Assembly: GCA_054600435.1 (NCBI GenBank)
Contig: BAAIJX010000013.1
Location: 62,001-126,000 of the forward strand
Direction: 5' to 3'
DNA: 64,000 bases
From: Neophaeotheca triangularis
Taxonomy: Eukaryota
Part shown: positions 41,111-50,143 of the stretch, one piece after another
Layout: each line of letters begins with the position of its first letter
Numbering within the stretch: the first letter of the stretch is position 1
Program-made: the position numbers and the translations under genes
Notes under the pieces: generated by a model
Database searches by the model: none
The model's input: the letters and a program-made list of their open reading frames with translations, nothing else
Told to the model about the DNA's origin: nothing

Positions 41111-43504
41111 ATGCTCGTACATCTGACACGCAGAGCGCTGGTGACTCACGCAACCCGACCCTTCTTCACCACCCTCACCCTCACCACCCTCACCACCTTC
41201 ACCAAACCGCAAGTCAGCCACTCCTTCACTTCCAGCGCAATGGCCCCCAAGGACAAAGCAGCCAAGGAGGGCGGGGACGCGAGACCGCTTGAGATGACCC
41301 CGCCGCCCGACTTCTTCGCGACCAGGAACGCCATCTTCGACAAGAGAAAGGCCGAGCGGGACGAGTGGGTAGCGAAGCAGCCGAGGGAGGAAATCACCGT
41401 CGAACTGGGCAATGGCAACTCGAAAAAGGCCACGAGGTGGGAGACCACACCCGCAAACTTGGCGCGTGAGATTAGCAAGAGTCTCTTCGAGCGCACCGTG
41501 ATTGCCAGGATTGATGGGGAGCTGTGGGATCTGGAGCGACCGTTTGAGAAGTCTTGCAAGCTCGAGCTGCTTGATTTTGAGCACCCCGAGGGCAAGAAGG
41601 TCTTCTGGCACTCTTCAGCACACATCCTCGGTGAAGCAGCCGAGCGTCGCTTTGGCTGCTCTCTATGCATCGGCCCTCCCGTCGAGGATGGCTTCTACTA
41701 CGAGATGGCCCTGCCGGACCAGGGTGCTGTCGTGCCCGCCGACTTCAAGCCACTCAAGCAGATTGCAGAGAAGGCCATTAAGGAGAAGCAGCCTTTTGAG
41801 CGCCTCGAGCTGAGCAAGGAGGATTTGCTCGAGATGTTCGCCTACAACAAGTACAAGCAGCACATCATCAAGGACAAGATCCCGGACAACACATCTACCA
41901 CCGTATACAGGTGCGGACCGCTCATCGACTTGTGCAGAGGACCCCACGTTCCCAACACTGGAGCCATCAAAGCCTTTGAGATAATGAAGAACAGTGCAAG
42001 CTACTTTCTGGGCGACGCAAAGAACGACAGCTTGCAGCGCATTTATGGTGTTTCGTTCCCTGACAAGAAGGCGCTTGCAGATCACAAGCACATGCTTGAA
42101 GAGGCAGCCAAGCGCGACCACCGCAAGATTGGCGCCGAACAGGAGCTGTTCTTCTTTCATCAAATGTCTCCCGGATCGTGCTTCTTCCTGCCTCATGGTA
42201 TGGTTATCTTCAACGCCTTGCAGTCGTTCATCCGCGAAGAGTACTGGACGAGAGGTTACCAAGAAGTCAATTCCCCCAATATGTACAATTCCGCTCTCTG
42301 GAAGCAATCGGGACACTGGCAGCACTACAAGGACGACATGTTTACTTTCGAGGTTGAGAAGGATCAGTGGGCTTTGAAGCCGATGAACTGCCCCGGTCAC
42401 TGCTTGCTATTCGGACACCGGGAACGCAGCTACCGCGAGCTACCTATGAGAATCGCAGACTTTGGTATTTTGCACCGCAACGAAGCCTCTGGCGCCTTAA
42501 CCGGTCTCACACGAGTACGTCGTTTCGTACAAGATGACACGCACATTTTTTGCATGCAAGAACAAGTTGGCGAGGAAATTGAAGGCCTCTTTGACTTTCT
42601 CCAAGCCGTCTACGGACTCTTCGGTTTCTCGTTCAAGATGAAGCTATCCACGATGCCCGAGAACCATTTGGGTGATGCCGCTACATGGGAGCGTGCGGAG
42701 GCGCAGCTCTCCACGGCACTTGACAAGTTCAAGGAACAGACTGGTACCGCATGGGAGCTGAACCCAGGAGACGGTGCCTTCTACGGGCCAAAGATCGACA
42801 TTACCATTTCCGACGCCCTTAGGCGAGAGTTTCAATGTGCCACAATCCAGCTCGACTTCCAGCTACCGCAGCAATTCAACCTCGAGTATCGCACGGATGA
42901 AAAAGCCGAACAGCGCCCTGCCGGAACCGCAGAAGATCAACCCAAAGCGGCCGACGGAGAAGCGCCACAGGAAGGCGAAAAGCTCCCTATCCGAAGCGCG
43001 CCTCCCGCCCAGCCAGACTCTTCCGCCGTCAAGAAAGAAGAAGGCCACTACCGCCGCGAGCTGACACCCGGCTGCGCTCGCCCCGTCATGATCCACCGCG
43101 CCATCTACGGCTCCTTTGAGCGCTTCATCGCCATCCTCACGGAACATTTCGCCGGTAAATGGCCCTTCTGGCTGTCTCCTCGGCAAATACTGATCGTGCC
43201 CGTCATGCCGGCCGCCAACGACTACGTGCTGGAACTGCAAAAGACATTCCGCGAGAAAAGAATGCACGTCGACGTCGACATCACCGGCAACACCATGCAA
43301 AAGAAGATCAGGACGGGCCAGCTGGCGCAGTACAATTTCATCTTTGTCGTCGGCGCGCAGGAGAGGGAGAACAGGTCCGTCAACATTCGCAACCGTGATG
43401 ACCCCGCGACGCAGAAGCTTGGGGAATTGGTCCCGGTGGACAAGGCGATAGAGATGTTAACGAGGCTGAGGGATGAGAGGCGGTTGGAGAGCAAGCTGCA
43501 GTAG
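41111..43504 (+). CDS. THS1: Threonyl-tRNA synthetase (cytosolic type; second ATG at 41240)
   Basis: [63 protein letters not shown]. Confidence 0.97.
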
Positions 43505-44533: not shown

Positions 44534-46738
44534 TTATTTGCTCCACCAAAACCCGTCCTTCTTGCTCTTGCCGTGCTTCTCTTTTCCGTTAGGAACGTGA
44601 CCATTGCTCGCAACACCACTGGTGTGACTTCCACCCCCCATAGTATCCGTCTGACTCAATAGTTGCCATAGCTCGCTTATACTGACACGCTGCGCCGGGA
44701 GCATCGAGTACTGTAGACTATACAGGCTTTTGCGATGGATGGGCGGGACGAAATGACCGGAGATCAGGCCGAGCAAAACGTGGGGCGAGAGGTAGTGTTT
44801 GCGCAAGCGGTGACCCAGTTGCGCGTACTGGCCGAACGTCTGCGAAAGGGGCAGCGGGACGGACTTTAGCTTAATGTAGGCTGTAGGTGCCGCGACGGTG
44901 CTCTGTAGATGAGCCAGGGGTGGCTGCAGCAATTCAAAGCGAATGCCCCCCGGAAGGCGTCGGGAGTCTTTGAGGCGTAGCATGACGGCGAAAAGGGGGA
45001 AGTGGTTCAAACAGGCAAGCCAGGTATCCAGGGCAGCTTTGAGAGCGATGATCGCTATGCGGGCACTGGCGAAGGTCGCATAAAAGACTGCGACGGTTGG
45101 TAAGAGGAAGAAGAGCAGCGTGAACAGGATGGTACCAAGTAGCAGCTGGTCAAGGTCGTAGTCGCAGCTGTCGATTCGATTGCGCAGAACATTTCTCTTT
45201 TTGCCCCGGAAAAGGTGGAACAACGAGACGATGATGGTCAGCTGCCAGTTGTAGATGCGAGCACTCGCCACATAGAAGCTGTAGATGTGTATAGTGAGCA
45301 AGCTCACAAGATCCGAGAACAGTGAGATGGGCAAGCTAGCTCCCGCGAAGCTGGACACGCCGATGATGCGGATGATATGTGGCAGAGCTGGCCGGAGTCC
45401 CGACATCCATGAATTCCAATAGTTAATAACCCAGAGGAAGAGGTCACCGAGGAAGGCAGCCAGCTCATTGTTCAGCTTGAGTCCGGCAGGATAAATTTTG
45501 AGCCAGGCAATCATGCGTTGAAGCCCTTTGATCGAATAGTCATTGATGATCTCGTCCAGCTTGCCGCCTACTGAATCGGCGTTCTCAATCACGTAGGATC
45601 CCAACGCGATACCTATGATGATGTCGTTCGCCACGAGCCAAAGACTGTTGAAGAAGCGGATGTAGTCTGGGTGCGTGGTGGTGATGCTTTCCCAGTCGTT
45701 ACGTCGATGCCGGAGCTTGATGTATTGAGCAGGCCAGTAGCAGAACTGTTGCAGTCGAATGTCGACTTGTTGAGCGGTAGCAGAGATATCCTTCAGCGTG
45801 GTGGCACCCGGCAGCAGTGGGCGCCAATCCAAAAGAAGAAGCATTCCCTCGGCAGCTAAACGCTGAAACATGAGCGCGAGGATGAAGACCTGCGAAGCGA
45901 AGGGCCAGATGTAGACCAAGAAAGCAGCTCGTGCTTTCTGGAGCAAGTCGTCCCAAAGGTTGGTTGCAGACACAACAACACGCTCACTGACACTCAGGCT
46001 GCGTTTCATGCGAATACCAACCATACCAATGTTCTTCTGCATCAAGGCGTTAATTTCCGCAGCACAATTCATCTGATCAATAATGGTTGGTAGCGCGAGT
46101 TCCTTGTGCGTTCTCGGATGCTTAATGACGGTGTGCAGTTTCAATTTCTCCACTAGCTTCTGCTTCTTGATCTTTTCCAATTCTTCGTCTTTGTCAATAG
46201 TATCAAAATGATCCGAGGTTGCCTGGTTGCGACGCTTGTCCTCGAGGGCCAAGGTTATTGGGGTGAGCGACAGATATTCCATTCTTTTTGGATCGGGTGG
46301 TTCGAAAGTGATGATTTGTACCGTCACGACAGTCTCGGCCGAAACGTCGATACTCGGCGCTTTGCATTTGCGAGTTGTATGCATTGAGAGCATCTGTGCA
46401 TCTGCGATTGCTGCACCCTTGGGCCTGTTCAGTGTGCCAAGCGCTTGCAATGGACGACCGCCGCATCTCTCGAGAATCCGCTCAATCTGATTTGGACTAC
46501 CTCTGAAGAGAGTCTGCATACGTAGCGCATTTTCGACATTGCGCGCCTTGTCATGGTTAGCAAACAGCACGGCGTCGCCTGTAGCATCAGGAAAACCCAC
46601 TTCGACGCCCTGAAGCACACCGACAACGACAATGTCGAGCTCAGAGTTCCGCCATCCCACAATGACTCCAGGGATATCGTCCGTTGGTACGTCTTCAGGC
46701 CAGAAGACGCGCATCAGACCGTGTTTGCGTGTGTTCAT
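44534..46738 (-). CDS. GPI1: GPI-GlcNAc transferase subunit Gpi1 (PIG-Q)
   Basis: Starts MNTRKHGLMRVFWP...GVIVGWRNS; in-frame intron 46600-46547; YIRFFNSLWLVANDI, PAGLKLNNEL, SLFHLFRGKKRNVLRNRIDS, DQLLLGTILF. Confidence 0.93.
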   Translation of the reverse strand: MNTRKHGLMRVFWPEDVPTDDIPGVIVGWRNSELDIVVVGVLQGVEVGFPDATGDAVLFANHDKARNVENALRMQTLFRGSPNQIERILERCGGRPLQALGTLNRPKGAAIADAQMLSMHTTRKCKAPSIDVSAETVVTVQIITFEPPDPKRMEYLSLTPITLALEDKRRNQATSDHFDTIDKDEELEKIKKQKLVEKLKLHTVIKHPRTHKELALPTIIDQMNCAAEINALMQKNIGMVGIRMKRSLSVSERVVVSATNLWDDLLQKARAAFLVYIWPFASQVFILALMFQRLAAEGMLLLLDWRPLLPGATTLKDISATAQQVDIRLQQFCYWPAQYIKLRHRRNDWESITTTHPDYIRFFNSLWLVANDIIIGIALGSYVIENADSVGGKLDEIINDYSIKGLQRMIAWLKIYPAGLKLNNELAAFLGDLFLWVINYWNSWMSGLRPALPHIIRIIGVSSFAGASLPISLFSDLVSLLTIHIYSFYVASARIYNWQLTIIVSLFHLFRGKKRNVLRNRIDSCDYDLDQLLLGTILFTLLFFLLPTVAVFYATFASARIAIIALKAALDTWLACLNHFPLFAVMLRLKDSRRLPGGIRFELLQPPLAHLQSTVAAPTAYIKLKSVPLPLSQTFGQYAQLGHRLRKHYLSPHVLLGLISGHFVPPIHRKSLYSLQYSMLPAQRVSISELWQLLSQTDTMGGGSHTSGVASNGHVPNGKEKHGKSKKDGFWWSK

Positions 46739-46766
46739 CCTCCCATCATGCCCGACAGAGTCCTGC

Positions 46767-47155
46767 CTAGAAGCTTCCCCTTCGCCGCAATTGTTCTCGT
46801 GCCGAGATGCCGGCTTCGGAGGTGCGTGGATGCTGTCCATGGTCAGGCTGGGGGGTCGTGAGTGTCGGGTTAAAGGGACTGATACTGACAAGCTCTGCCT
46901 CGTAAGCAGCGATGCGGTCGATAGGAATTGCGAGGAGGAAGAAGAACAGAGAGAGAATGGCGAATCCCTTTGCCGCTCGTGTCTATGATTGCAGTTAGCT
47001 CCTGTTGAGTAAAGAGAGAACGCGGGAAGGCCTACCACAACACCGTGATCCCAGGCAAATATGGCCAGCTCATACAACCGGGTGACGAGGTCCCAGCGAG
47101 CAGTGATGTATCCAGCTACGAAGATGCCAGCGGTGAGGATGGAAAAGGGGTGCAT
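46767..47155 (-). CDS. Uncharacterised 92-aa small membrane protein (3 exons) immediately upstream of GPI1
   Basis: Exons 47155-47036, 46982-46890, 46832-46767. Introns GTAGGC..GCTAAC..TAG (53 nt) and GTCAGT..CCTGAC..CAG (57 nt), both phase 0. Product MHPFSILTAGIFVAGYITARWDLVTRLYELAIFAWDHGVV-TRAAKGFAILSLFFFLLAIPIDRIAAYEAEL-HPRTSEAGISAREQLRRRGSF*. Confidence 0.8.
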
Positions 47156-47847
47156 CGAGCGTTGGAATCAAACGCTCAAGTCAAAGGTACTGTGGCGGTG
47201 GGGCATTGGGACTGGTATCGTAGGCGTGTCCCAGTGGCTTTGTCGAAGCGAGGGCGGCAATCTTGGGCGAGGCAGGGAGGAGGTCTCAAAATTATTAAAG
47301 GAGCGACGGCCGCTTGAATGGAAGTTCGCAGGACAGGCACGGCGTAGATTCTGGGAGAGAGTGAGTTGCTGGGTAGGTTGGTACCTAGGTAGAGAGTAAC
47401 CTTGTAAGTCAGCCCGGCTTGAAAGAGCGCCGACGTCGAGAGCTGACATTTGATTGGCGCGCATCTTGACTGCCGCGCCTCAGGCTGCGATGAACCTAGA
47501 CACTACTGTACTGGTACTACCTAACCGTACGTGCATACCTTATCGATAAGCCACCCTTATTGACCGAAGTCTTGAGACCGCGTTCCGTTCAAAACTATGT
47601 ACTGTCAGTGTACCTAACCTCCTACCAACTACCTACACCTGCTAGTACTACTATATGTACCCTACCTGGAGAACTGTACTTGTACCTTGTCGTCTACTTG
47701 CTCTATCTTCGCTTGGAACTGTAGATTCGGACTGACCTCTTTCAACAAGATATTGAATTGAATCGACGCGTCCCTCCAACTAGACGAGTTACCGCAACGA
47801 GTATTACCCTTGCCATGATGACCCCTGCTTAGCACGTAGGTTCGAAT

Positions 47848-50143
47848 ATGGCTAGGGGAGGTTATCGCGGTGGCGGAGGTGGCGGAGGCGACCGGGTTTG
47901 CTCTTTCTTCCAGCAAGGTCGATGTAAATTCGGAGGTATGATATCGTTACAGCCCTGGAATCGTCCCTCGCTTCCTGTCACTCTCATCCCGCTGACTCTA
48001 ACCACAGCAAACTGCCGCTTCGACCATCCTGGATTCGAAGATGCCCAGAGCTTGCAGCACAACGACCGACGCGGAGCTGTAGATAGCTGTAAGTCTAATC
48101 CAACTGAAGGCCCTTCACTTGCGCAACTCGTGAAATGCTTGGCATTGCTGCTCAAGGGCCTTCTCCAAACCTCACTTCACACTTCGCTTTATCCAGAGAC
48201 ACAACTTCTAAAGACACGACCGGACCCCCTACTGCTCAGATACCAAACCAAACATGATCACTAACTGGCAGCAAGATCGACCGGGTCAACCAAGCAGTAG
48301 CCGGTCACTACCGTCAGCCATCTCCCTCCAACAAAACATGGAGCCAATGCTAATGAGCCACTGCAGATACGGCCTTGACCGAGATGTGCTGAAAGACGAC
48401 CTCACAAACAACAAACCAAGCTGGCCCCTTTCCTGCTACAGCCCCGCAAAAGAGGGCCCACGCCACCTATTCGAAGGCGAGATAGAGGTTAGCCCTGAGG
48501 AGGCACGCCTGAAATTCTACCTAGCGCGTGCCCAAGGAAACGAGCAACGTGCCATTCAGGAAGAACAGCAAGCGGTGAATCAAGTCACTAGTCAAATCCA
48601 GACGGCTCTCAACAACCTGGATGGCGCGATAGACTACGTGATTCAAGGCAAAGACATTCATCCCAACAGATTCGACATCTGCGAAGAGGGATCCAAAGCC
48701 TCCAAACAAGGAGCATCTGCCCCAGGTATGAATGGAGGAGGGGCAAGCGCATTCGGGCAACCTTCAGCACCCTCCGCATTTGGCCAACCTGCTAGCACGA
48801 GTGGCACCTTCGGAAAACCATCAAACCAGGGCAGCGCCTTTGGTCAACCCTCTCAGCCAGCCTTTGGTCAACCTTCCAACTCGGGCGGCGCCTTCGGTAA
48901 ACCGTCCTTTGGACAGCCATCGCAACCCTCGGCCTTAGGACAATCTCCACAACCCTCGGCCTTGGGACAATCTTCACAACCATCCGCCTTTGGGCAACCA
49001 TCACAGCCTTCGACCTTTGGGCAACCCGCTCAAGCCTCAGCTTTCGGCAAAGCCTCACAATCTTCAGCATTCGGTCAACCGTCACAGCCCTCAGCTTTTG
49101 GTCAGCCATCGCAGCCTTCAGCTTTCGGGCAATCATCGCAGCCATCTGCGTTTGGTCAGCCGTCAAAACCTGCGGCTTCACAATCGACCTTTGGTCAGCC
49201 GTCAAATCCTAGCTCTACATTCGGCCAGCCATCAAACCCGACATCTGCGTTTGGCCAACCTTCGAAGCCTGGTGTGAGCCCGTTTGCTGCCGCGGATCAA
49301 AGGCAAGGCTCCCCCTTCGGTCAAGCGGCGCAAAACCCCTCGCCCTTTGCGCAAACCTCTCAAAACCAACAGCAGCCGGCCCAACCTGCCTTCGGCCAGC
49401 CATCTCAACCATCAGCTTTCGGTCAACCGTCGAACCCTGCGGCGATACCATCCCCATTCGGAGCACCATCGCAGCCATCAGCGTTTGGCCAGCCATCGAA
49501 CCCCGCGGCCAAGCCCTCACCGTTCGCAGCAGCAGGTCAGCAATCAAACTCCCCCTTCGGAGCGCCCACTGGTTCCAAAGCTGCTTCGCCATTCTCCCAG
49601 TCCAGCGCCTTTGGCCAGCCTTCGCAGCAGTCGGCATTCGGTCAGCCCTCTCAGCCACAGCAAGCCACGAGCACTTTTGGTCAGCCCAGTCAGCCTGCAT
49701 CGCAACCCAACGGCTTTGGTCAACCTCCATTCAATACTCAGCCAACCGACAGCACTGTGGGACCAGCAAACTCAAGCGAGAACATCGCTACACCACCAGT
49801 CTCCTCCTACGCCCAACACGGAGCAAACAAGCAGTTAACAAGGTGGAAAGGGCAATCCGTCCGCTACGTCCCGGAAAGCCGCACAAAAGAAAACGCGGCA
49901 GTCATTCCAGTCTTCAACGACCCCGCCAGCGACGGCAGGGAGATTCGAATCTGGAACCCCGACGGTCCGCCGGAACAAATTTCCAAGGATGTGGAAGCAA
50001 AGGATGCCAGCGTGTACGAGCTTGGGGATCTGGCGGCTGTGCTGAAGGATGTGTACTCGCATATGAATGCTACGGCAGAGTTCAAGGACGGGTTGATGCC
50101 GGAGATTCCGCCAAAGAGCGAGTGGATCGGGTGGGATGTCTAG
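47848..50143 (+). CDS. AMO1: CCCH zinc-finger FG-repeat nucleoporin (Amo1/Nup42/NUPL2-like)
   Basis: CSFFQQGRCKFGANCRFDH after splicing; inferred introns 47936-48007, 48089-48275, 48313-48366; WPLSCY..EVSPEEARL; many SAFGQPSQP repeats; C-terminal GLMPEIPP. Confidence 0.82.
48745..49725 (+). repeat. Coding degenerate tandem repeat (SAFGQPSQP, about 27-nt unit) of the FG nucleoporin
   Basis: Many FGQP/FGKP units in the translation. Confidence 0.85.

What the first reader, a model, noticed from the sequence alone, without database searches (positions are those of the whole stretch)
46730..47155. Spliced 92-aa membrane microprotein gene ending 28 nt before GPI1: candidate dicistronic locus for a new GPI-pathway component
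Seen in sequence: three exons with canonical phase-0 introns encode a 92-aa protein with two hydrophobic segments and a C-terminal RRRGSF (RRxS PKA-type site; also Arg-rich like ER-retention signals). Its TAG (46769-46767) lies 28 nt upstream of the GPI1 ATG (46738), too little room for a poly(A) site plus a separate intergenic promoter. The ORF track wrongly fuses both into one 873-aa ORF. Established: the GPI-GlcNAc transferase has tiny two-TM accessory subunits (Eri1/PIG-Y, DPM2), and human PIGY is encoded on a bicistronic mRNA with PYURF. Inference: one mRNA co-produces Gpi1 and a small partner or regulator, or a functional uORF controls Gpi1 dose. I do not recognise the peptide as a named family.
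Basis: partly seen in the sequence, partly recalled or inferred. Interest (0 to 1): 0.85.

Follow-up and report, generated by a model that had tools for sequence, protein, structure and literature searches.

The report
Conserved two-protein gene: microprotein plus GPI1
A strongly conserved 92-residue membrane protein is encoded a few dozen bases in front of the GPI-anchor gene GPI1 throughout filamentous ascomycetes, apparently on the same messenger RNA, which is a rare arrangement in fungi and leaves the small protein's job open.

Summary
On the minus strand a three-exon gene (ATG 47155, TAG 46769-46767) encodes a 92-aa protein, and its stop lies 28 nt before the GPI1 ATG (46738). The window matches Neophaeotheca triangularis.

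The protein has no Pfam family. It is about 80% identical across at least six classes of Pezizomycotina, with median dN/dS near 0.10, and it models as a helical hairpin.

All 72 related metagenome loci with enough downstream DNA carry GPI1 directly behind it on the same strand. The spacer is 6-63 nt, median 20. Of the 120 longer database proteins listed, 107 are gene models that wrongly fuse the two.

Two contigs are spliced copies of genomic contigs and span both reading frames, so RNA covering both genes exists in relatives.

The small gene's ATG has a pyrimidine at -3 in 46 of 47 contexts. The GPI1 ATG has a purine there in 40 of 44. ATGs are scarce inside the small gene.

The best reading is a conserved dicistronic mRNA in which GPI1 is reached by leaky scanning.

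No evidence found here for a role of the small protein in GPI synthesis. No RNA data were listed for this species, and single-molecule proof is lacking.

The parts
47036..47155 (-). Small gene, exon 1 (codons 1-40). The start ATG is 47155-47153, with T at -3 (47158) and C at +4. It contains the first hydrophobic helix.
   Evidence: The start context is conserved: -3 is T in 38, C in 8 and G in 1 of 47 unique contexts.
46983..47035 (-). Intron 1, 53 nt, phase 0, GTAGGC...GCTAAC...TAG.
   Evidence: An intron sits at the same place (after codon 40) in 26 of 52 related loci.
46890..46982 (-). Small gene, exon 2 (codons 41-71), containing the second hydrophobic helix.
46833..46889 (-). Intron 2, 57 nt, phase 0, in frame and without a stop. 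The 3' site is set by homology.
   Evidence: An intron sits at the same place (after codon 71) in 31 of 52 related loci. Its removal is seen directly in the spliced contigs L047 and L048.
46767..46832 (-). Small gene, exon 3 (codons 72-92 plus TAG 46769-46767). It encodes the near-invariant tail ISAREQLRRRGSF.
   Evidence: Synonymous sites of the tail vary freely, so the conservation is at the protein level.
46739..46766 (-). 28-nt spacer between the two reading frames. It holds ATGs at 46749-46747 and 46746-46744, which open a 4-codon mini-ORF. The mini-ORF's TGA (46737-46735) overlaps the GPI1 ATG.
   Evidence: Spacers are 6-63 nt, median 20, in 48 unique loci. An ATG 8 nt before the GPI1 ATG occurs in 27 of 47 unique spacers.
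44534..46738 (-). GPI1 (PIG-Q homologue), an intronless ORF of 734 aa. The ATG is 46738-46736 with A at -3.
   Evidence: PF05024, E 2e-111. The -3 base is a purine in 40 of 44 unique contexts.

Best explanation
The locus is a conserved dicistronic unit of Pezizomycotina. One promoter drives one spliced, mature mRNA that carries first a 92-aa helical-hairpin membrane protein and then, 28 nt later, GPI1, a subunit of the enzyme that starts GPI-anchor synthesis.

The small reading frame starts at an ATG kept in a weak context (pyrimidine at -3, C at +4). Part of the scanning 40S subunits therefore pass it. The frame is almost free of further ATGs, and those that exist are all in weak context. The leaked subunits start at the GPI1 ATG, which has a purine at -3. 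The strength of the first ATG would thus set the ratio of the two proteins.

The small protein is a protein in its own right, not only a regulatory uORF.

Shown here:
- The gene structure and the conservation of the protein.
- Universal tight linkage to GPI1.
- RNA-derived contigs with both frames in two relatives.
- The start-context and ATG patterns.

Inferred:
- A single RNA molecule carries both frames.
- GPI1 is reached by leaky scanning.
- The same holds in this species.

Open: what the small protein does. A role beside Gpi1 in the ER is a guess.
For: Conservation of the protein:
- One search found 126 relatives, mostly of 92 aa.
- Mean column identity is 80% over 30 sequences.
- Median dN/dS is 0.097, with dS about 1.8, over 507 pairs of 48 unique coding sequences. 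The invariant tail uses up to 6 synonymous codons per residue.
- AlphaFold2 with 40 sequences gives two long helices (3-36, 39-71), mean pLDDT 89.

Linkage to GPI1:
- 72 of 80 metagenome loci have GPI1 directly downstream on the same strand. The other 8 end within 83 nt of the small gene.
- Spacers are 6-63 nt, median 20, in 48 unique loci including the window.
- 107 of the 120 listed longer database proteins are models that fuse the small protein to a PF05024 protein. Their junctions differ from genome to genome.

RNA evidence in relatives:
- L047 is at least 99.4% identical to genomic L061 and L064, minus one intron of the small gene and two of GPI1.
- L048 equals L029-L032 minus four introns.
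- Both contigs keep the stop and the spacer and hold both frames.

Translation signals:
- The -3 base of the small ATG is T in 38, C in 8, G in 1 and A in 0 of 47 contexts, while positions -12 to -4 vary. The GPI1 ATG has G in 30 and A in 10 of 44.
- All 45 internal ATGs have a pyrimidine at -3.
- His37, which precedes Gly, is CAC in 38 of 38 sequences, against CAT in 26 of 47 at His72 (Fisher p 5e-9). A CAT there would create a strong-context ATG.
- ATG density is 0.30 per 100 nt in the small coding sequence against 2.95 in GPI1 codons 2-45.

Literature:
- Passages of PMC7049704 report functionally important Kozak context and extensive leaky scanning in Neurospora.
- The abstract of PMC11892635 shows the same two signatures for algal bicistronic loci.
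Against: - There is no RNA evidence from this species.
- The two spliced contigs are short-read assemblies. Two overlapping transcripts would assemble into one contig, and L048 has a chimeric 5' end.
- 46 of 48 loci have at least one ATG between the two starts.
- An ATG 8 nt before the GPI1 ATG occurs in 27 of 47 spacers, and at the position that is -3 to it a purine stands in 36 of all 44 contexts. Simple leaky scanning does not predict this.
- Against synonymous resampling the ATG shortage is modest: 45 observed against 59.3 +/- 6.3, with 3 of 300 resamplings at or below the observed value.
- ATG scarcity would also fit a GPI1 5' UTR that lies inside the small gene.
- The sequences are related, so the counts are not independent.
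- Passages of PMC4503453 report 0 polycistronic units in deep PacBio data of Neurospora crassa. I did not see how that pipeline treats fused gene models.
- The in-window control for start context is crude: the first ATG of 24 long ORFs has a purine at -3 in 16 and T in 5, one of which is this gene.
Confidence: 0.6

Rival explanations
1. Two overlapping monocistronic transcripts. GPI1 has its own start site inside the small gene, so the 3' part of the small gene serves as the GPI1 5' UTR. The small gene's mRNA ends somewhere in or beyond the start of GPI1. The tight spacing is then a compact overlap, not co-translation.
For: Short-read assemblies merge overlapping transcripts, so cannot exclude this. 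ATGs are nearly absent from nt 102-279 of the small coding sequence (1 among 51 sequences), as expected of a 5' UTR. PMC4503453 found no polycistronic units in N. crassa (passages).
Against: It gives no reason for the conserved pyrimidine at -3 of the small ATG (46 of 47), nor for all 45 internal ATGs of the small coding sequence, which lie mostly in its 5' part, being in weak context. A promoter and a poly(A) site would both have to sit inside coding sequence in every lineage, although synonymous sites vary freely.
Confidence: 0.25
2. Dicistronic mRNA, but GPI1 is reached mainly by reinitiation after translation of the small frame or of the mini-ORF in the spacer, not by leaky scanning.
For: Spacers are very short, median 20 nt. 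The spacer ATG opens a mini-ORF of 3-10 codons in 22 of the 27 spacers that have it. In the window its TGA overlaps the GPI1 ATG.
Against: By established knowledge (recalled), reinitiation after a 92-codon frame is inefficient in eukaryotes, and short spacers disfavour ordinary reinitiation. 20 of 47 spacers lack the extra ATG. The weak context of the first ATG is not needed in this model.
Confidence: 0.08
3. The small frame is only a regulatory uORF of GPI1, and the peptide has no function of its own.
For: It lies upstream of GPI1 on the same RNA and must take a share of the scanning ribosomes.
Against: It has 92 codons. dN/dS is 0.097 with saturated synonymous sites, 23 columns are invariant across 40 sequences, and the hairpin model is confident.
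Confidence: 0.04
4. The small frame is the true N-terminus of Gpi1, joined by splicing or read-through, as many database models have it.
For: 107 of the 120 listed longer proteins are such fusions. In the window the unspliced frame is open through both.
Against: A stop ends the small frame in every one of the 48 unique loci. The relative frame of the two ATGs varies among loci. The fusion junctions differ from model to model. The spliced contigs keep the stop and the spacer. 0 of 48 other loci have an open unspliced fusion.
Confidence: 0.03

Closest known systems
Bicistronic nuclear loci of green algae (PMC7896298, search listing; PMC11892635, abstract read)
   Same: Two conserved protein-coding frames lie on one mature mRNA. 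The first frame has a weak Kozak-like context, and start codons before the second frame are scarce. Leaky scanning sets the ratio of the two products.
   Different: The lineage is different. Here the evidence is comparative only. Many spacers carry an extra ATG just before the second start. The first gene has introns in many lineages.
Human PYURF-PIGY bicistronic transcript (passage in PMC13303939)
   Same: A subunit of the GPI-GlcNAc transferase is the downstream frame of an mRNA that encodes two proteins.
   Different: The subunit is different (PIG-Y there, Gpi1/PIG-Q here). There is no sequence relation between the upstream proteins. By recall, the human upstream protein is mitochondrial and has no role in GPI synthesis, which warns against inferring function from co-encoding.
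Small two-helix subunits of GPI-GlcNAc transferase: Eri1/PIG-Y and DPM2/Yil102c-A (passages in PMC3184424 and PMC11294708)
   Same: Size under 100 aa, two hydrophobic helices, and a genomic tie to the same enzyme.
   Different: None of 30 members matches any of these Pfam families at E <= 10. A C. graminicola ERI1 candidate (GLRG_01976) is not next to GPI1 (GLRG_02030) (supplement of PMC8949851). Binding to the enzyme has not been shown.
Polycistronic transcripts of mushroom-forming fungi (PMC4503453, passages)
   Same: Fungal transcripts that carry more than one protein-coding frame.
   Different: In those fungi the genes are also transcribed on their own, and the configuration fades outside Agaricomycetes. 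The authors found none in the ascomycete N. crassa. Here the pair is fixed across classes of Pezizomycotina with a spacer of about 20 nt.
Conserved-peptide uORFs such as the fungal arginine attenuator peptide (recalled, not checked here)
   Same: An upstream frame whose peptide sequence is conserved.
   Different: Those are about 24-aa stalling peptides. This is a 92-aa membrane hairpin with a conserved cytosolic-type tail.

Membership tests
Eukaryotic dicistronic (two-protein) mRNA read by leaky scanning | Two non-overlapping conserved protein-coding frames on the same strand with a short spacer | tested here: met
   Window. 72 of 72 loci with more than 83 nt of downstream DNA show the pair. 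Spacers are 6-63 nt.
Eukaryotic dicistronic (two-protein) mRNA read by leaky scanning | One mature mRNA molecule carries both frames | tested here: inconclusive
   Two spliced RNA-derived contigs span both frames in relatives. They are short-read assemblies, one has a chimeric end, and there is nothing for this species.
Eukaryotic dicistronic (two-protein) mRNA read by leaky scanning | Both frames are under purifying selection as proteins | tested here: met
   Small protein dN/dS is 0.097. GPI1 matches PF05024 at E 2e-111 and has 56% mean column identity over 60 sequences.
Eukaryotic dicistronic (two-protein) mRNA read by leaky scanning | Weak start context at the first frame and a stronger one at the second | tested here: met
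   The -3 base is a pyrimidine in 46 of 47 contexts at the first ATG and a purine in 40 of 44 at the second.
Eukaryotic dicistronic (two-protein) mRNA read by leaky scanning | Depletion of start codons between the two starts | tested here: inconclusive
   The coding sequence is poor in ATG (0.30 against 2.95 per 100 nt; 45 against 59 by resampling) and all its ATGs are in weak context. However, 46 of 48 loci have at least one ATG, and the spacer is ATG-rich.
Eukaryotic dicistronic (two-protein) mRNA read by leaky scanning | Both proteins are made from that mRNA, with the second depending on the first start's strength | not testable with these tools
   This needs ribosome profiling and start-context mutants.
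Small subunits of GPI-GlcNAc transferase (Eri1/PIG-Y, DPM2, PIG-P, PIG-H) | Sequence match to the family profile | tested here: not met
   hmmscan of 30 members at E <= 10 gave only scattered DUF matches in 1-2 members. There were no PDB relatives.
Small subunits of GPI-GlcNAc transferase (Eri1/PIG-Y, DPM2, PIG-P, PIG-H) | Small protein with two membrane helices | tested here: met
   The AlphaFold2 hairpin has helices 3-36 and 39-71, with hydrophobic stretches near residues 5-20 and 46-62. This is a generic feature.
Small subunits of GPI-GlcNAc transferase (Eri1/PIG-Y, DPM2, PIG-P, PIG-H) | Physical association with the enzyme and an effect on its activity | not testable with these tools
   This needs co-purification and GlcNAc-PI synthesis assays.
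Gpi1/PIG-Q (as many database names of the 92-aa protein claim) | Presence of the Gpi1 domain PF05024 | tested here: not met
   Neither the exon translations nor 30 full-length members match. The names 'PIG-Q' and 'MDM35' are borrowed from neighbouring genes through fused models.
Peptide-independent regulatory uORF | Short frame whose peptide sequence is free to vary | tested here: not met
   The frame has 92 codons, dN/dS is 0.097, and 23 columns are invariant.

The most novel reading that the evidence does not exclude
The 92-aa hairpin is a so far unrecognised, Pezizomycotina-specific partner of the GPI-GlcNAc transferase. A dicistronic mRNA that has been kept since the radiation of the crown classes fixes its dose relative to Gpi1. 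Its invariant C-terminal LRRRGSF would be a kinase-operated switch: an RRxS site at the very end of the chain, reminiscent (by recall) of Arg-based ER retrieval combined with phospho-dependent 14-3-3 binding. [quoted passage not shown]
Probability: 0.15. Interest if true: 0.85.

Novelty: new member of a known kind. Interest (0 to 1): 0.62.

Why it matters
Two-protein mRNAs are regarded as rare in fungi. The one long-read survey I read in passages (PMC4503453) reported none in an ascomycete mould. A pair kept with a spacer of about 20 nt across at least six classes, together with a conserved weak first start codon, would be a clean natural case of leaky-scanning dicistrony. It could be tested directly in Neurospora or Aspergillus.

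It also explains a widespread annotation error. Many genomes fuse the two genes, or name the small protein 'PIG-Q' or 'MDM35' after its neighbours.

GPI-anchor synthesis is essential for the fungal cell wall and is an antifungal target area. An unknown, highly conserved, fungus-specific membrane protein tied to its first enzyme therefore deserves a look. Co-encoding alone does not prove a shared function.

Tried and rejected
- Whole genome of the window: none is held.
- RNA runs for window 46300-47500: no RNA holder was listed.
- Complex prediction of Gpi1 with the small protein (from L001): the verdict was 'no answer', with scores of 0.00. The alignments were not used and the partner's fold was uncertain, so this is neither for nor against binding.
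- Pfam on the exon translations and on 30 full-length members: nothing relevant.
- ESM Atlas: it returned only the family's own clusters and one bacterial row at 0.83, which is below the level to trust. The search restricted to named clusters gave no usable hit.
- PDB by sequence, for Gpi1 and for the small-protein profile: 0 matches. Foldseek of the hairpin model against the PDB: 0 matches. No solved GPI-GlcNAc transferase was therefore available for comparison.
- Earlier findings of this scan: nothing by sequence, place or words.
- Literature: seven searches found no paper that describes this small protein or a two-frame GPI1 mRNA in fungi. PMC1266422, the original PIG-Y paper, is not held.
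- MDM35 as a third cistron: rejected. It lies about 600-800 nt upstream in Leotiomycete- and Sordariomycete-type loci and is not found in the window.
- Comparison with a PIG-Y/Eri1 alignment by profile-profile search was not done, because no tool gave me such sequences.
- The weakest 128 of the 278 hits of the exhaustive profile search are not listed. Whether the family reaches beyond Pezizomycotina therefore stays open.
Full report
**What is in the window.**
On the minus strand an ATG at 47155 opens a 40-codon exon. It is followed by a 53-nt intron with a GTAGGC donor, a GCTAAC branch site and a TAG acceptor, and then a 31-codon exon. Next comes an in-frame, stop-free stretch that begins GTCAGT, and a last exon that ends in TAG at 46769-46767. 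Homologues of 92 aa place the end of the second intron at 46833. Joining the exons in a script gives 92 aa. The deposited model of this gene (P0004, Neophaeotheca triangularis, 111 aa, 100% identical) reads through that second intron. Twenty-eight bases after the TAG an ATG at 46738 opens a 734-aa intronless frame that matches Pfam Gpi1 at E 2e-111. The 873-aa ORF in the mechanical list is the unspliced frame running through both genes. No other locus has such an open fusion (0 of 48).

**The small protein is real and tightly constrained.**
- A word-indexed search found 126 relatives at E <= 0.01, most of them 92 aa.
- An exhaustive profile search found 278 at E <= 0.001, many of them gene-caller fragments of exon 1.
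- Thirty full-length sequences share 80% mean column identity, with 29 invariant columns.
- Over 48 unique 92-codon sequences the median dN is 0.185, dS is 1.78 and dN/dS is 0.097. These values come from 507 pairs with dS under 3.
- The invariant tail is written with up to six different codons per residue, so the constraint is on the protein and not on the RNA.
- AlphaFold2 with 40 sequences gives a hairpin of two long helices and a short third one, mean pLDDT 89.
- No Pfam family matches. There is no PDB relative by sequence or fold and no named Atlas cluster.
- The source names that exist ('phosphatidylinositol glycan class Q', 'MDM35', 'N-acetylglucosaminyl transferase component') belong to the neighbouring genes.

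**Linkage to GPI1 is universal in the data I could reach.**
- A search for longer proteins returned 233 hits. Of the 120 listed, 107 carry the Gpi1 domain behind the small protein.
- These come from Dothideo-, Sordario-, Leotio-, Eurotio-, Lecanoro- and Xylonomycetes, among others.
- The joints differ from model to model, as expected of gene predictors forced to bridge a stop.
- A scan of metagenome contigs gave 254 relatives, of which 80 were kept.
- GPI1 follows on the same strand in 72 of them. The remaining 8 end within 83 nt of the small gene.
- The stop-to-ATG distance is 6-63 nt, median 20, in 48 unique loci including the window.
- The relative frame of the two ATGs varies.
- Intron positions after codons 40 and 71 are shared. 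Of 52 loci, 25 have both introns, 6 only the second, 1 only the first, and 20 none.

**RNA evidence comes from relatives only.**
- Contig L047 (2,669 nt) is at least 99.4% identical to genomic L061 and L064. It lacks exactly one 54-nt intron of the small gene and two GPI1 introns.
- L048 likewise equals L029-L032 minus four introns.
- Both contigs hold the complete small frame or most of it, then the stop, the spacer and a full GPI1 frame.
- L001, L018 and L023 look the same but have no genomic partner in my set.
- These are short-read assemblies, and the first 114 nt of L048 are a chimeric join to a psbA-like message. They show spliced RNA running across the junction, not a single molecule.
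- No RNA run was listed for the window itself.

**How GPI1 could be translated.**
- The base at -3 of the small ATG is T in 38, C in 8, G in 1 and never A in 47 unique contexts, while positions -12 to -4 vary. The +4 base is C in 46 of 47.
- The GPI1 ATG has G or A at -3 in 40 of 44 contexts.
- Inside the small coding sequence there are only 0-2 further ATGs. The total is 45 in 51 sequences, against 59.3 +/- 6.3 after synonymous resampling.
- All 45 have a pyrimidine at -3.
- His37 before Gly is always CAC (38 of 38), although His72 is CAT in 26 of 47. A CAT at codon 37 would make an ATG with A at -3 and G at +4.
- ATG density is tenfold lower than in the first 44 codons of GPI1.
- These are the signatures reported for algal bicistronic loci (abstract of PMC11892635).
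- Passages of PMC7049704 describe strong Kozak dependence and leaky scanning in Neurospora.

**Points against a simple picture.**
- Most loci keep one weak ATG at nt 83-85 of the coding sequence (32 of 51).
- 27 of 47 spacers hold an ATG 8 nt before the GPI1 ATG. It opens a mini-ORF of 3-10 codons in 22 of those 27.
- ATG scarcity alone would also fit a GPI1 5' UTR inside the small gene.
- A long-read survey found no polycistronic units in N. crassa (passages of PMC4503453). However, Neurospora gene models fuse the pair (P0166), which could hide it.

**Function of the small protein.**
Nothing here ties it to GPI synthesis except its position. It does not match PIG-Y/Eri1, DPM2, PIG-P or PIG-H profiles. 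A paper assigns C. graminicola ERI1 to a gene 54 locus tags away from GPI1 (supplement of PMC8949851). The human parallel, PYURF-PIGY (passage in PMC13303939), pairs a GPI subunit with a protein of unrelated function by my recall. The invariant tail ends in an RRxS-type site. Cross-talk between the first GPI enzyme and cAMP-PKA signalling is known in yeasts (PMC11294708, passages). This is a lead only.

**Verdict.**
The dicistronic reading is well supported by comparison and by RNA-derived contigs in relatives, but it is not proven at the single-molecule level or in this species. The claim of a GPI-pathway component is unsupported. It is a new member of a known kind (a conserved two-protein mRNA read by leaky scanning), with an uncharacterised and widely mis-annotated protein family.

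Noticed in passing
window 46749-46735 (minus strand); spacers of L001-L079: An ATG 8 nt before the GPI1 ATG is present in 27 of 47 unique spacers. At the position that is -3 to it, a purine stands in 36 of all 44 contexts. It opens a mini-ORF of 3-10 codons in 22 of those 27. In the window the mini-ORF's TGA overlaps the GPI1 ATG. Its role is unexplained; it may gate GPI1 initiation.
   Followed up: partly
window 47047-47045 (codon 37 of the small gene) and the same codon in 47 other sequences: His37, which is followed by Gly, is CAC in 38 of 38 sequences. His72 is CAT in 26 of 47 (Fisher p 5e-9). A CAT at codon 37 would create an out-of-frame ATG in an optimal context.
   Followed up: yes
window 44534-47155 (minus strand): The unspliced frame is open for 873 aa through both genes only in this genome. 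0 of 48 other unique loci show this, so it is a chance feature and not a conserved fusion isoform.
   Followed up: yes
L057:2966-3376, L068:2652-3034, L049:2861-3291 and others: An MDM35/TRIAP1-like gene (PF05254) lies about 600-800 nt upstream on the same strand in Leotiomycete- and Sordariomycete-type loci. Some database models fuse it to the small protein. It is not found in the window.
   Followed up: partly
database records P0069, P0085, P0392, P0397, P0406: The 92-aa family circulates under names borrowed from its neighbours ('phosphatidylinositol glycan class Q', 'MDM35', 'N-acetylglucosaminyl transferase component'). This is an annotation error spread from fused gene models.
   Followed up: partly
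L048:1-114: The 5' end of this spliced contig is a chimeric join to the start of a psbA-like message. Assembly errors therefore occur in these RNA-derived contigs.
   Followed up: yes
L029:3488-3544 versus L048:286: The second intron ends in a tandem TAG-CAG acceptor. The RNA-derived contig uses the upstream AG (54 nt removed), which gives 93 aa rather than the 92 aa that my homology-based splice choice predicted.
   Followed up: partly
window 47168-47464 (minus strand): A 98-codon ORF ends 12 nt before the small gene's ATG. I did not test it for conservation. It may simply be open leader or promoter sequence.
   Followed up: no
window 41111-43504 (+) and 48254-50143 (+): The flanking long ORFs look like a threonyl-tRNA synthetase and an FG-repeat (SAFGQPS-rich) nucleoporin-like protein, judged by eye from the translations.
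   Followed up: no
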